A stretch of DNA of 26,231 bases from a virus. The position numbers were made by a program, and so were the translations under genes. Below, piece by piece: positions 22,349 through 24,059 of the stretch. A model generated the notes under the pieces. The model saw only the letters and a list, made by a program, of their open reading frames with translations, was not told the origin of the DNA and did not search any database. The first letter of the stretch is position 1. Each line of letters opens with the position of its first letter. Location: the IMG/VR virus record IMGVR_UViG_3300042731_005304; one strand, 5' to 3'.

Positions 22349-23281
22349 TTAGAAGATAAGACTAGCTGGGTCGTCCCACTCTGAATAGAGCCTGCAATTC
22401 CTTCTCAGGATGAGATATTTCAAATCCTTCTTGTCGCCCTTCTTGTTCATGCAGTCGAAGTCAACTACTATAGACATGTTGTCCATTGAGTATTTCATGG
22501 CTCCGAACGGGAGCTTGTTAAGCGGACGACCAAACTCTCTTAAATATCTGGCCAAGAACTTCCACCAGTCCGTGTTGTACCTGGTCATTCTGTTCATGCG
22601 AATCCAGCTTGTTACTTCGCCATCTTCGCCAGTAGAATAGAGCTTTCTGAAAGTAATCTGGTCAGCGTTAAACTCTCGACACCGTTGAATAAGGTTTCCA
22701 TAGTGACTGTGCCAAAACTGTTTGTCTTCTGGAAACTCATATTCTTCAAATCCATCTGTGTTCATATTCAGACTGAGTCTGAGGTTAAATCCGTTGCTCT
22801 TGATGTATTCACAGACATCTTTGATAGAAAAGTGAAACCCTTCAGGAGTATTCATTATTTCCAGATTCTTATCGTCATCAAGAGATGACAAAGATAGAGA
22901 AATCGTCTTTACTCCGATTGAATCCATCAGCCACATCCTCTGGTCAGTCAAACCAATGCCTGAAGTTTGAACTTCAATGTTTATAAACCTATCGTTGCCA
23001 AGCGACTTATTAACTTCGTCAAAGAATTTCAAATATTTCTCGTTGAATAGCGGCTCAGAGTATGTGCCGGTAAGAACAAGAGTATCAATATCTTTCTGTC
23101 TCAGATAAAGCAATCGCTCTGTGAAAGCTTGTCGTACCCAATCTTCAATAGCGTCAGTCCCAAACTTAAACACATCATTGAGCATGTCTACTTTGCCCTT
23201 GCGCCAAAGCTCTGAGACACAGAATTTACAATTGTTTGGGCAGCCGCCGGGTACATCTAATGATGCTGATTGTATCTTCAT
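22349..23281 (-). CDS. Radical SAM enzyme, 310 aa. Specific function unknown
   Basis: N-terminal PGGCPNNCKFCVS is the CxxxCxxC [4Fe-4S] motif. VLTGTYSEPL is the Gly-rich SAM-binding (GGE-like) motif. The ATG lies 2 nt after the Thg1-like stop, so the two genes are translationally coupled. Confidence 0.65.
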   Translation of the reverse strand: MKIQSASLDVPGGCPNNCKFCVSELWRKGKVDMLNDVFKFGTDAIEDWVRQAFTERLLYLRQKDIDTLVLTGTYSEPLFNEKYLKFFDEVNKSLGNDRFINIEVQTSGIGLTDQRMWLMDSIGVKTISLSLSSLDDDKNLEIMNTPEGFHFSIKDVCEYIKSNGFNLRLSLNMNTDGFEEYEFPEDKQFWHSHYGNLIQRCREFNADQITFRKLYSTGEDGEVTSWIRMNRMTRYNTDWWKFLARYLREFGRPLNKLPFGAMKYSMDNMSIVVDFDCMNKKGDKKDLKYLILRRNCRLYSEWDDPASLIF

Positions 23282-23282
23282 G

Positions 23283-24059
23283 TTATGCTCCTGCTGTTGC
23301 TGGTCCTACACATTCCTGGACCAAGTTACCAACTATCCACCTTTCTTTTGTGAAGATGATATTTGGAACTGCGTCCCAGTTGCTACGAATCCTTTCGCTT
23401 TCTCCACCATCGCTTGTATCGAATACTTCTCTTATAAGAGTTACACCGTTCTTCCACTTGTCATCAAGATCTGCCCAGTTAACTCCCTTCTCGTAGAGCA
23501 TCTCATGCATATCTGAACGGTTTTTACCATGAAGCTCTTTATGAGAATAGTATTCTCGTGCTAACATCTGCACACTGTTTTTCGTCCAATCCTGCTGACG
23601 CCAGACAAAATAGTTGTTGGCGTCTTCTCTTGGAATATTGAAGACTCTAGAATCGAATATGCCATACAAATCATTCTCTGTATGTACATGCCTCATCAAA
23701 GACGTAAAGAAAGAAGAAGCAATTCCTGATGAGACAGACGTCATCTTTTGAATGTTGTAGTCGAACCACGACTCGGTGTTCAATGTGTCGTAGTCCACTA
23801 AAAGAATTGAAATCTCATCGCTCTGAACGTAAGCTAGCTTAGCGCCTTGTATCTCTTCACAGAGTCGTCTTGCTGTTTCTTCCATCCATATTGCGAAATC
23901 TTCATCGAACGGTCTGTTCAAGTGAAGACGCTTTGTAAGCGTATGAAATGCCTTGCCATCAATCCTCATGACGACTGGCATTCTACGAGCTAGAGATGTT
24001 TGAGAGCGGAATTCGTAGTATTCTTTCATCCGCTCGCCTAAAGTTCTTTTATGATGCAT
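23283..24059 (-). CDS. Thg1-like protein (tRNA-His guanylyltransferase family, 3'-5' nucleotidyltransferase)
   Basis: VVMRIDGKAFHTLTKRLHLNRPFDEDFAIWMEETARRLCEEIQGAKLAYVQSDEISILL matches Thg1 [59 protein letters not shown], including the metal-binding Asp and the SDE motif. DSRVFNIPREDANNYFVWRQQD matches [23 protein letters not shown]. Confidence 0.65.
   Translation of the reverse strand: MHHKRTLGERMKEYYEFRSQTSLARRMPVVMRIDGKAFHTLTKRLHLNRPFDEDFAIWMEETARRLCEEIQGAKLAYVQSDEISILLVDYDTLNTESWFDYNIQKMTSVSSGIASSFFTSLMRHVHTENDLYGIFDSRVFNIPREDANNYFVWRQQDWTKNSVQMLAREYYSHKELHGKNRSDMHEMLYEKGVNWADLDDKWKNGVTLIREVFDTSDGGESERIRSNWDAVPNIIFTKERWIVGNLVQECVGPATAGA

What the first reader, a model, noticed from the sequence alone, without database searches (positions are those of the whole stretch)
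22349..24059. Translationally coupled Thg1-like 3'-5' polymerase and radical-SAM enzyme
The 258-aa protein aligns block-for-block with Thg1/TLP family enzymes, including the RxDG...SDE catalytic region. These are reverse 3'-5' nucleotidyltransferases that add G-1 to tRNA-His or repair 5'-truncated tRNAs. Its stop codon is 2 nt from the ATG of an N-terminal CxxxCxxC radical-SAM protein, which implies a functional pair. In a tRNA-rich phage this could be a tRNA 5'-end repair or remodelling system, for example a countermeasure to host nucleases that clip tRNA acceptor or 5' ends. It could equally be an RNA or nucleotide modification pathway. The radical-SAM partner resembles no specific family I can name: NrdG, QueE, MoaA and viperin-like proteins all share only the Cys motif. 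I am not aware of characterised phage Thg1-like proteins, and none paired with a radical-SAM enzyme.
Basis: partly seen in the sequence, partly recalled or inferred. Interest (0 to 1): 0.8.

Follow-up and report, generated by a model that had tools for sequence, protein, structure and literature searches.

The report
Phage tRNA-repair enzyme beside orphan radical-SAM gene
Two neighbouring phage genes are a reverse (3'-5') tRNA 5'-end repair polymerase of a kind often annotated in phages and an uncharacterised radical-SAM enzyme; comparison with other genomes links the radical-SAM family to NAD-recycling genes, not to the polymerase.

Summary
On the minus strand, a 258-aa Thg1-like protein (TLP, 23283..24059) ends 1 nt before the ATG of a 310-aa radical-SAM protein (22349..23281).

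The TLP is a bacterial-type Thg1-like protein. It scores 104.6 bits to Pfam Thg1 and E 5.6e-56 to the B. thuringiensis TLP structure 4KGK, and every catalytic residue checked is present. It is not rare: 162 deposited phage genomes encode one, PHROG 4717 covers it, and a jumbo-phage review lists it as a tRNA 5'-repair enzyme.

The "functional pair" reading is not supported:
- The adjacency occurs only inside one collinear phage clade.
- The two closest relatives keep the radical-SAM gene without the TLP.
- A TLP lies near 1 of 81 viral and 0 of 80 cellular radical-SAM loci. The radical-SAM gene lies near 0 of 43 viral TLP loci.
- Half of the gene junctions in this window are 5 nt or less, so a 1-nt spacer is normal here.

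The radical-SAM protein belongs to a family of more than 1000 unnamed members with a generic MoaA/viperin-like core. In bacteria and phages this family sits among NAD-salvage genes (pncB, nadD, nadE, nrtR, nadR/pnuC). That association is the more interesting lead.

The parts
23283..24059 (-). Thg1-like protein (bacterial-type TLP), 258 aa: template-dependent 3'-5' nucleotidyltransferase, presumed to repair tRNA 5' ends
   Evidence: Pfam PF04446 104.6 bits. PHROG 4717 288 bits. PDB 4KGK (BtTLP) E 5.6e-56 over residues 6-243. Residues E16, R32, D34, H39, S80, D81, E82, K105, R138, R154 and M165 are conserved. BtTLP K43 is R49 here, as in 13 of 44 aligned sequences.
22349..23281 (-). Radical-SAM enzyme of an unnamed family, 310 aa, with a MoaA/viperin-like core and a family-specific C-terminal part
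23279..23292 (-). Gene junction: AGGAG ribosome-binding site (23292..23288), TAA stop of the TLP (23285..23283), 1-nt spacer (23282), ATG of the radical-SAM gene (23281..23279)
   Evidence: Read directly from the sequence. No promoter-like or terminator-like site lies between the genes. Spacing of 5 nt or less occurs at 18 of 36 junctions in the window.
24049..24309 (-). 86-aa ORF (hydrophobic by eye; no TM prediction run) upstream of the TLP, overlapping its start by 11 nt. It belongs to the clade's collinear block.
   Evidence: ORF. Homologues in the same position in L128, L214 and (weakly) L130. A similar 84-aa ORF precedes the TLP in L086.
24531..25871 (-). ATP-dependent DNA ligase, the anchor of the collinear block that holds the TLP and the radical-SAM gene in related phages
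   Evidence: PF01068 and PF14743. PHROG 114. 61-80% identical ligases lie upstream of the TLP and/or the radical-SAM gene in L002, L086, L130, L132 and L214.
22120..22320 (-). 66-aa ORF immediately downstream of the radical-SAM gene, conserved in the clade
   Evidence: Homologues lie after the radical-SAM gene in L128/L129, L130/L131 and L214.

Best explanation
These are two independent accessory enzymes that are co-transcribed in a tightly packed phage operon. They are not a dedicated two-enzyme system.

Gene 1 is a bacterial-type Thg1-like protein. By homology, it activates the 5'-monophosphate of a 5'-shortened tRNA with ATP or GTP. It then adds the missing nucleotides in the 3'-5' direction, templated by the 3' strand of the acceptor stem, using two metal ions held by D34 and D81. 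In this phage it belongs with the 10 tRNAs, a tmRNA and an ArfB-like RF-1-domain protein as equipment for keeping translation running.

Gene 2 is a radical-SAM enzyme. It uses a [4Fe-4S] cluster on C14/C18/C21 to cleave SAM and abstract a hydrogen atom from a substrate that is still unknown. Its family travels with Preiss-Handler and NR-type NAD-salvage genes in bacteria and large phages. I therefore infer that it acts in or alongside NAD (pyridine nucleotide) recycling, which phages may use against NAD-depleting host defences.

Shown: the identities, the intact motifs, the gene order and the co-occurrence statistics. Inferred: the tRNA substrate of the TLP, co-transcription, and any link between the radical-SAM enzyme and NAD chemistry.
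For: TLP identity and an intact active site.

TLP genes occur in 162 phage genomes in many different contexts. A review already assigns phage Thg1 to tRNA 5' restoration.

Absence of a conserved pairing:
- 1 of 81 viral radical-SAM loci has a TLP within 8 kb.
- 0 of 80 cellular radical-SAM loci do.
- 0 of 43 viral TLP loci have the radical-SAM gene within 6 kb.
- Contig IMGVR_UViG_3300037089_000505 carries both genes about 80 kb apart (L031 and L086).

Within the clade the whole block is collinear: o73-ligase-o80-o86-TLP-rSAM-o66-o66b-o130...NT5C-o119-RNR. Zero, one or two small ORFs lie between the two genes. The TLP is absent from the two relatives whose radical-SAM proteins are closest, at 72-73% identity.

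The 1-nt spacer is typical of this genome.

NAD link of the radical-SAM family:
- NAD-salvage genes lie within 6 kb in 24 of 81 viral and 29 of 80 cellular loci, against 3 of 43 control TLP loci (Fisher p = 0.003).
- Co-directional arrangements exist: NadD-NadE-EIIC-NrtR-rSAM-PncB, rSAM-NadD-NadE-EIIC and NadE-NadR-PncB-rSAM. There is also a convergent cluster, rSAM next to NadR-PnuC-NrtR-NadE. These occur in MAGs labelled Clostridia, Ruminococcus and Bacteroidales, an unclassified bin, and in other forms in Bacilli and Bacteriovorax MAGs.
- Pfam confirms the neighbour identities.
Against: Within the window's own clade the two genes are adjacent or nearly adjacent in five distinct genomes (window, L128, L130, L132, L214) and directly abutting in three. 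A clade-specific functional link therefore cannot be excluded.

This window has no pncB, nadD or nadE next to the radical-SAM gene. The only candidate is an isochorismatase-family gene 13.6 kb away.

The NAD association is guilt by association. About two thirds of the family's loci show no NAD gene within 6 kb. The query set for the control comparison was derived from the radical-SAM loci themselves. Several of the cellular loci are closely related MAGs and so are not independent.

No substrate is known, and the fold matches are generic (TM about 0.6, 12-18% identity). Other frequent phage neighbours, namely RtcB, PTH2 and the CCA-adding enzyme, are RNA-repair genes. An RNA-related role for the radical-SAM enzyme is therefore not ruled out.
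Confidence: 0.7

Rival explanations
1. One reading: the TLP and the radical-SAM enzyme form a functional pair acting on the same tRNA substrate. One version is 5'-end repair followed by, or dependent on, a radical modification. This would counter host nucleases that clip tRNA ends.
For: The genes abut with a 1-nt spacer and an internal ribosome-binding site. They are adjacent or nearly so in five related phage genomes. The phage is rich in tRNA and ribosome-rescue genes. RNA-repair genes (RtcB, PTH2, CCA-adding enzyme) recur near the radical-SAM family in other phages.
Confidence: 0.1
2. The radical-SAM enzyme is a nucleotide or DNA-precursor modifying enzyme that belongs to the phage's nucleotide-metabolism block. 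One version is a step in making a modified base or an unusual dNTP. On this view the NAD-gene neighbourhood is incidental.
For: In this clade it sits among a DNA ligase, an NT5C 5'-nucleotidase and a ribonucleotide reductase, and the window holds two thymidylate-synthase-like paralogues. A dCMP deaminase neighbours it in 13 of 80 viral loci and in L217. Two of its three best structural matches, MoaA and viperin, bind nucleoside triphosphates.
Against: In cellular genomes the recurring neighbours are NAD-salvage genes and the NrtR regulator, not nucleotide or DNA-modification genes. No DNA-modification partners such as glycosyltransferases or DpdA-like proteins were seen next to it.
Confidence: 0.15
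3. The radical-SAM enzyme is a viperin-like (or MoaA-like) enzyme that makes a dehydrated chain-terminator nucleotide or a cyclised GTP product.
Against: The MoaA model scores 24.9 bits against a cutoff of 284. The pVip hit is 18.6 bits and covers only the common radical-SAM core, residues 14-175. Identity to viperins is 10-14%, and GDGT-MAS and anSME score equally well. None of the neighbour families identified here is a molybdopterin-synthesis or viperin-partner kinase gene.
Confidence: 0.05

Closest known systems
Bacillus thuringiensis Thg1-like protein (BtTLP; PDB 4KGK/4KGM; PMC3701042)
   Same: The match runs almost full length (residues 6-243) at E 5.6e-56. The three carboxylates, the activation and transfer residues, and the TLP-type Met (M165, equivalent to Bt M158) are identical. 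By homology it has the same two-metal, template-dependent 3'-5' addition used for tRNA 5'-end repair.
   Different: It is phage-encoded. The conserved activation lysine (Bt K43) is arginine (R49), as in 13 of 44 aligned sequences. Activity and substrate are untested.
Phage-encoded 'tRNA-His guanylyltransferase' genes (PHROG 4717; for example Bacillus phages vB_BmeM-Goe8, Bcp1 and G)
   Same: The same family: 41-47% identity over more than 90% of the length in the best-matching records, a 288-bit match to the PHROG profile, and typical of large, tRNA-rich phages.
   Different: This copy comes from an uncultivated phage clade. Its neighbours (DNA ligase upstream, radical-SAM gene downstream) differ from the 43 viral TLP loci surveyed here. 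The gene neighbourhoods of the Bacillus phages were not examined.
Eukaryotic Thg1 (human THG1, PDB 3OTB; yeast Thg1)
   Same: The same palm-like catalytic domain and carboxylate triad.
   Different: The match is only E 1.2e-10. The protein has Met where eukaryotic Thg1 has Asn (hTHG1 N158). It is therefore expected to be template-dependent, not the non-templated G-1 addition opposite A73.
MoaA (GTP 3',8-cyclase) and viperin (CTP dehydratase) radical-SAM enzymes
   Different: Identity is 12-16%. The MoaA family model fails its cutoff (24.9 against 284 bits). No MoaA-type C-terminal CxxCx13C auxiliary-cluster motif is present. The C-terminal motifs DxDCM and RRNCKLYSxWD are family-specific. The genomic context is NAD salvage, not molybdopterin synthesis or antiviral defence.
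Phage NAD-salvage and NAD-reconstitution gene sets (from my own knowledge: KVP40 NadV/NatV; the NARP1/NARP2 counter-defence pathways)
   Same: The radical-SAM family clusters with nadE, pncA-like and pncB genes in large phages, as those systems cluster their own NAD genes.
   Different: To my knowledge no radical-SAM enzyme is part of any described NAD-salvage or reconstitution pathway. I found no paper linking them.

Membership tests
Thg1/TLP superfamily (3'-5' nucleotidyltransferases) | Thg1 catalytic domain recognised above the curated threshold | tested here: met
   PF04446 scores 104.6 bits against a cutoff of 29.2, covering residues 9-143 and the whole profile. PHROG 4717 scores 288 bits.
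Thg1/TLP superfamily (3'-5' nucleotidyltransferases) | Three conserved carboxylates (hTHG1 D29/D76/E77; BtTLP D30/D75/E76) | tested here: met
   D34, D81 and E82 align to them and are invariant in 44 aligned TLPs. The residue roles come from PMC3701042.
Thg1/TLP superfamily (3'-5' nucleotidyltransferases) | Residues for the activation and nucleotidyl-transfer steps (Sc K44/S75; R27/K96/R133; Bt E12, R147) | tested here: met
   S80, R32, K105, R138, E16 and R154 are present. The lysine equivalent to Bt K43 is R49, a conservative change shared by 13 of 44 aligned sequences.
Bacterial-type TLP, as opposed to eukaryotic Thg1 | Closest to BtTLP, with Met rather than Asn at the hTHG1 N158 position | tested here: met
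   4KGK matches at E 5.6e-56, against 1.2e-10 for human Thg1. M165 aligns with Bt M158 and is Met in 41 of 44 sequences.
Bacterial-type TLP, as opposed to eukaryotic Thg1 | Template-dependent 3'-5' addition on 5'-truncated tRNA | not testable with these tools
   This needs an enzyme assay. Indirect checks only: none of the 10 window tRNAs has an acceptor-stem mismatch that would require 5' editing, and the window has no tRNA-His.
Radical-SAM superfamily | CxxxCxxC cluster motif and the radical-SAM core domain and fold | tested here: met
MoaA (GTP 3',8-cyclase) | Equivalog model score above the cutoff, and a C-terminal auxiliary-cluster motif | tested here: not met
   TIGR02666 scores 24.9 bits against a cutoff of 284. 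No CxxCx13C motif is present, and only C157 and C277 are conserved outside the N-terminal triad.
Viperin / prokaryotic viperin (pVip) | Full-length match to viperin profiles | tested here: inconclusive
Conserved two-gene system (TLP + radical SAM) | Co-occurrence and adjacency maintained across divergent genomes | tested here: not met
   1 of 81 viral radical-SAM loci, 0 of 80 cellular radical-SAM loci and 0 of 43 viral TLP loci show the partner. Adjacency occurs only within one collinear clade and is lost in L002 and L126.
NAD-salvage gene cluster (Preiss-Handler / NrtR regulon) | Operonic linkage to pncB, nadD, nadE, nrtR or nadR/pnuC | tested here: inconclusive
   Met at family level: 24 of 81 viral and 29 of 80 cellular loci, with co-directional operons. 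Not met in this window, where the only candidate is an isochorismatase-family gene at 8044..8694, 13.6 kb away. No biochemical test was possible.

The most novel reading that the evidence does not exclude
The 310-aa protein represents an unrecognised radical-SAM step in NAD (pyridine-nucleotide) salvage or repair. It would be native to anaerobic bacteria, where it sits inside nadD-nadE-nrtR-pncB operons. Large phages would have captured it repeatedly together with nadE, pncA and pncB to rebuild or protect NAD during infection, possibly against NAD-depleting immunity. On this reading its neighbour, the TLP, is unrelated.
Probability: 0.3. Interest if true: 0.7.

Novelty: new member of a known kind. 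Interest (0 to 1): 0.4.

Why it matters
The TLP by itself adds one more phage copy of an enzyme already catalogued as a phage tRNA 5'-repair factor. I found no biochemical study of a phage TLP, so this compact, intact copy would suit a first one.

The proposed TLP/radical-SAM system does not hold up, which saves effort on a pairing that is inherited gene order.

The useful by-product is the radical-SAM family. It has more than 1000 members and no name or function. It is absent from PHROGs and below cutoff for every NCBIfam model. It is repeatedly embedded in NAD-salvage operons of anaerobic bacteria and in NAD-gene islands of large phages. If it does act on pyridine nucleotides, it would add a radical enzyme to a pathway thought to be fully mapped. 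It might also bear on how phages cope with NAD-depleting defences.

Tried and rejected
- Megablast of 21500..26000 against 50,697 phage records found no match, so no cultured relative exists.
- A PDB sequence search with the radical-SAM protein gave only chance hits at E above 0.6.
- PHROGs returned no family for the radical-SAM protein, the PolX-like protein or the small ORFs.
- NCBIfam returned only far sub-threshold radical-SAM maturase, MoaA and HemW hits. I rejected the MoaA label that JGI gives to some homologues.
- PADLOC returned a weak pVip hit covering the core only. I rejected it as evidence that the protein is a viperin.
- A BFVD fold search found no close viral structure: TM 0.64 or less and identity 16% or less.
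- The afdb50 fold library was unavailable.
- Literature searches for Thg1-like + phage + radical SAM, radical SAM + NrtR, radical SAM + pncB/nadE, and radical SAM + NAD salvage + phage found nothing relevant.
- I tested whether the window's tRNAs need 5' editing. All 10 have fully paired acceptor stems, Watson-Crick or G-U.
- I tested whether G-1 of tRNA-His needs post-transcriptional addition. The window has no tRNA-His. In 5 other TLP-bearing loci the tRNA-His gene has G at -1 in at least 4, so the G-1 role is not required.
- The promoter and terminator scan between the genes was no better than shuffled sequence.
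Full report
**1. The observation**

ORF listing shows two minus-strand ORFs at the coordinates given. One is 258 aa at 23283..24059 and the other is 310 aa at 22349..23281. 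The junction reads GCAGGAGCA-TAA-C-ATG. The stop codon is 23285..23283, a single spacer base sits at 23282, and the ATG is 23281..23279. An AGGAG ribosome-binding site lies at 23292..23288, inside the end of the upstream gene.

The consensus scan found no promoter-like or terminator-like site between the two genes, and its counts for the region are no higher than in shuffled sequence. The two genes are therefore very probably co-transcribed.

This spacing is not special here. Of 36 consecutive minus-strand ORF junctions in the window, 18 overlap or are 5 nt or less apart.

**2. The Thg1-like protein**

- Pfam Thg1 (PF04446) scores 104.6 bits against a cutoff of 29.2.
- PHROG 4717, "tRNA-His guanylyltransferase", scores 288 bits.
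- The best solved structure by far is the Bacillus thuringiensis Thg1-like protein 4KGK (E 5.6e-56, residues 6-243). An archaeal TLP, Candida Thg1 and human Thg1 follow at 1e-15 to 1e-10.

I used the residue roles described for BtTLP and the yeast and human enzymes (PMC3701042) and an alignment of 44 sequences (the window TLP, 42 TLPs from the fetched loci, and BtTLP).

- The metal-binding carboxylates are D34, D81 and E82.
- The other functional positions are E16, R32, H39, S80, K105, R138 and R154.
- All of these are present. All are invariant in the alignment except R154, which is R in 43 of 44 sequences.
- M165 occupies the position where TLPs have Met and eukaryotic Thg1 has Asn.
- The single difference is R49 in place of the activation-step lysine (Bt K43), a conservative change shared by 13 of the 44 sequences.

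This is a catalytically intact, bacterial-type TLP. By homology it is expected to carry out template-dependent 3'-5' addition, that is, tRNA 5'-end repair.

**3. How unusual a phage TLP is**

It is not unusual. tblastn finds a TLP in 162 phage records from Bacillus, Prevotella, Caulobacter, Mycobacterium, Vibrio and other hosts. In 112 of them one place covers at least 80% of the query, and most of those listed are annotated as tRNA-His guanylyltransferase. A comparative review of jumbo phages already lists Thg1 as a sporadic phage enzyme for restoring tRNA 5' ends (PMC7824862). I found no paper that characterises a phage TLP biochemically.

Two simple predictions for a special role were checked.

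- The 10 tRNAs of the window all have fully paired acceptor stems, so nothing requires 5' editing.
- The window has no tRNA-His. In five other TLP-bearing viral loci that do have one, G is encoded at -1 in at least four. G-1 addition is therefore not obligatory.

**4. The radical-SAM protein**

It has the CxxxCxxC motif (C14, C18, C21) and a Pfam Radical_SAM match of 39 bits against a cutoff of 29.5. No specific family fits.

- The best NCBIfam hits are far below their cutoffs: a tungsten-cofactor maturase at 27.5 against 380, and MoaA at 24.9 against 284.
- There is no PHROG hit.
- There is no PDB sequence hit.
- There is only a weak PADLOC pVip hit that covers the shared core.

A database search found 1041 homologues at E 0.001 or better. 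The 120 best listed are mostly full-length (about 290-320 aa), and the few that a source names carry only generic or conflicting pipeline labels. The alignment shows family-specific motifs: TGTxSEP, QTSG, NLRLSLN, ADQITFRKLY, DxDCM and RRNCKLYSxWD.

**5. Testing the pairing across divergent genomes**

- From 80 IMG/VR loci, one GenBank megaphage locus and a duplicate locus, all carrying the radical-SAM family at 33-73% identity, only L013 has a TLP within 8 kb. It lies 4 kb away.
- From 80 cellular-genome loci, none has a TLP within 8 kb.
- From 43 IMG/VR loci carrying a TLP at 37-61% identity, none has the radical-SAM gene within 6 kb.
- One 144-kb viral contig (IMGVR_UViG_3300037089_000505) carries both genes about 80 kb apart (L031 and L086). 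Its ligase is 66% identical to the window's. Its TLP is followed by an unrelated 70-aa ORF.

**6. The pairing within the window's own clade**

The picture here is different but has an explanation. Contigs encoding the closest radical-SAM homologues share a collinear block with the window: o73-ligase-o80-o86-TLP-rSAM-o66-o66b-o130-...-NT5C-o119-RNR. Ligase identity is 61-80% and RNR identity 65-82%.

| Locus | Arrangement |
|---|---|
| Window, L128, L214 | TLP and rSAM abut |
| L130/L131 | a 67-aa ORF lies between them |
| L132 | two ORFs (39 and 66 aa) lie between them |
| L002/L003 and L126/L127 (rSAM 72-73% identical, the closest) | no TLP; an 84-aa ORF precedes the rSAM gene |
| L215 | different neighbours |
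| L217 (52%) and L004 (54%) | no TLP |

The adjacency is therefore conserved no better than the order of all the other, unrelated genes in the block. Direct abutment is not conserved, and each gene persists without the other. This is inherited gene order, not evidence of a functional pair.

**7. What the radical-SAM family does associate with**

I clustered the neighbouring ORFs of the 80 viral loci. The recurrent neighbours, confirmed by Pfam, are as follows.

| Neighbour | Loci |
|---|---|
| NAD synthase | 20 |
| Isochorismatase/PncA-like | 15 |
| Nicotinate phosphoribosyltransferase | 15 |
| RtcB | 13 |
| dCMP deaminase | 13 |
| PTH2 | 12 |
| Macro domain | 11 |
| CCA-adding enzyme | 8 |

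In cellular genomes the signal is sharper. The family is found in MAGs labelled Clostridia, Spirochaetes, Elusimicrobia, Bacteroidales and candidate phyla such as SR1 and Peribacteria, and in a few isolate or complete genomes. It sits in clusters of the following forms, with the neighbour identities confirmed by Pfam.

- NadD-NadE-PTS_EIIC_2-NrtR-rSAM-PncB, co-directional (L198, L201, L202, L203, L208)
- rSAM-NadD-NadE-EIIC, co-directional (L186, L188, L189, L191, L193)
- NadE-NadR-PncB-rSAM, co-directional (L143)
- rSAM with a convergent NadR-PnuC-NrtR-NadE cluster (L144, L183)

With a common query set, NAD-salvage genes lie within 6 kb of 24 of 81 viral and 29 of 80 cellular radical-SAM loci. 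The figure for the 43 viral TLP loci, used as a large-phage control, is 3 (Fisher p = 0.003).

These counts have three limitations.

- The queries came from the radical-SAM loci themselves.
- One cluster that I labelled PncA-like has no Pfam hit.
- Several of the clostridial loci are closely related.

No paper links a radical-SAM enzyme to this pathway.

In the window itself the only NAD-related candidate is an isochorismatase-family gene at 8044..8694. A clade relative (L002) carries PARP-like and PRPP-synthase genes. L086 carries a Nudix-like ORF (my reading of the sequence) and a nicotinate phosphoribosyltransferase near its TLP (tblastn with NAD-gene queries).

**8. Conclusion**

The region encodes two independent accessory enzymes in a densely packed leftward operon.

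The TLP most likely repairs tRNA 5' ends by the established two-step, two-metal, template-dependent mechanism. It belongs with the phage's tRNAs, its tmRNA (Rfam 73 bits) and an ArfB-like RF-1-domain protein.

The radical-SAM enzyme is a member of a large orphan family. Its best-supported functional context is NAD salvage, its substrate is unknown, and the NAD link is an inference from gene neighbourhoods only.

I put about 0.7 on "independent genes". I put about 0.1 on a clade-specific functional pair. The remainder goes to other roles for the radical-SAM enzyme, in nucleotide or DNA modification or viperin-like chemistry.

The finding as proposed is ordinary for the TLP and unsupported for the pairing. 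The radical-SAM/NAD association is a lead worth following on its own.

Noticed in passing
window 22349..23281; loci L143, L144, L183, L186-L193, L198-L208: The radical-SAM family sits inside bacterial NAD-salvage clusters, for example NadD-NadE-PTS_EIIC_2-NrtR-rSAM-PncB, rSAM-NadD-NadE, and arrangements with NadR, PnuC and NrtR. In large phages it lies near nadE, pncA-like and pncB genes. No function is described for this family.
   Followed up: partly
window 21576..22127 (-): A 183-aa minimal family-X polymerase with palm and thumb only. It matches Thermus PolX at E 2e-17 and the 174-aa ASFV Pol X at 4e-8. It lies four genes downstream of the ATP-dependent DNA ligase and is absent from the same position in every syntenic relative examined.
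   Followed up: partly
window 19077..19343 (-), 11183..11518 (-), and 10 tRNAs between 160 and 12267: The phage carries its own tmRNA (Rfam 73.4 bits; tag GEEQFLMAA), a 111-aa RF-1-domain protein resembling the ribosome-rescue factor ArfB, and 10 tRNAs, none with an encoded CCA end. Together these look like a ribosome-rescue and translation kit.
   Followed up: partly
window 694..3375 (-): An 893-aa protein with Major Vault Protein shoulder and repeat domains and an SPFH/Band-7 domain (MVP_shoulder 95.7 bits). This is an unusual architecture for a phage. A Band_7 protein also follows the radical-SAM gene in relative L215.
   Followed up: no
window 3615..4433 and 4442..5335 (-): Two tandem, divergent thymidylate-synthase-like paralogues (about 30 bits each). 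They could be pyrimidine hydroxymethylases and hint at modified DNA bases.
   Followed up: no
window 13433..14752 (-); L132 13132..15255: A class-V aminotransferase (cysteine desulfurase-like, 185 bits) that could supply sulfur for Fe-S clusters. In relative L132 a second, different radical-SAM gene follows it. In the window that position holds only short ORFs.
   Followed up: partly
window 8044..9278 (-), 5960..6931 (-), 10416..11174 (-): An isochorismatase-family protein (possibly a nicotinamidase) overlaps a ClpP-like protease gene. A DHH/DHHA1 phosphoesterase and a non-specific DNA/RNA endonuclease (188 bits) lie nearby.
   Followed up: no
L108 227..300, L111 7556..7629, L112 246..320, L113 243..317, L125 12237..12310: tRNA-His genes lying within 6 kb of TLP genes in other viral contigs have G encoded at -1 in at least four of five. 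They also share U-U mismatches at acceptor-stem positions 4:69, and usually 5:68.
   Followed up: partly
window 162..234, 294..367, 9458..9531 (-): Three of the ten phage tRNAs (Glu-UUC, Ile-UAU, Met-CAU) have a G1-U72 wobble as the first acceptor-stem pair. A strictly Watson-Crick templated repair of position 1 would change it to A1-U72.
   Followed up: no
L002 10881..15179 versus window 16603..18906: The ribonucleotide reductase of the closest relative is interrupted by inteins with homing-endonuclease domains (1432 aa). The window's copy is uninterrupted (767 aa), with a free-standing HNH endonuclease gene nearby at 14837..15466.
   Followed up: no
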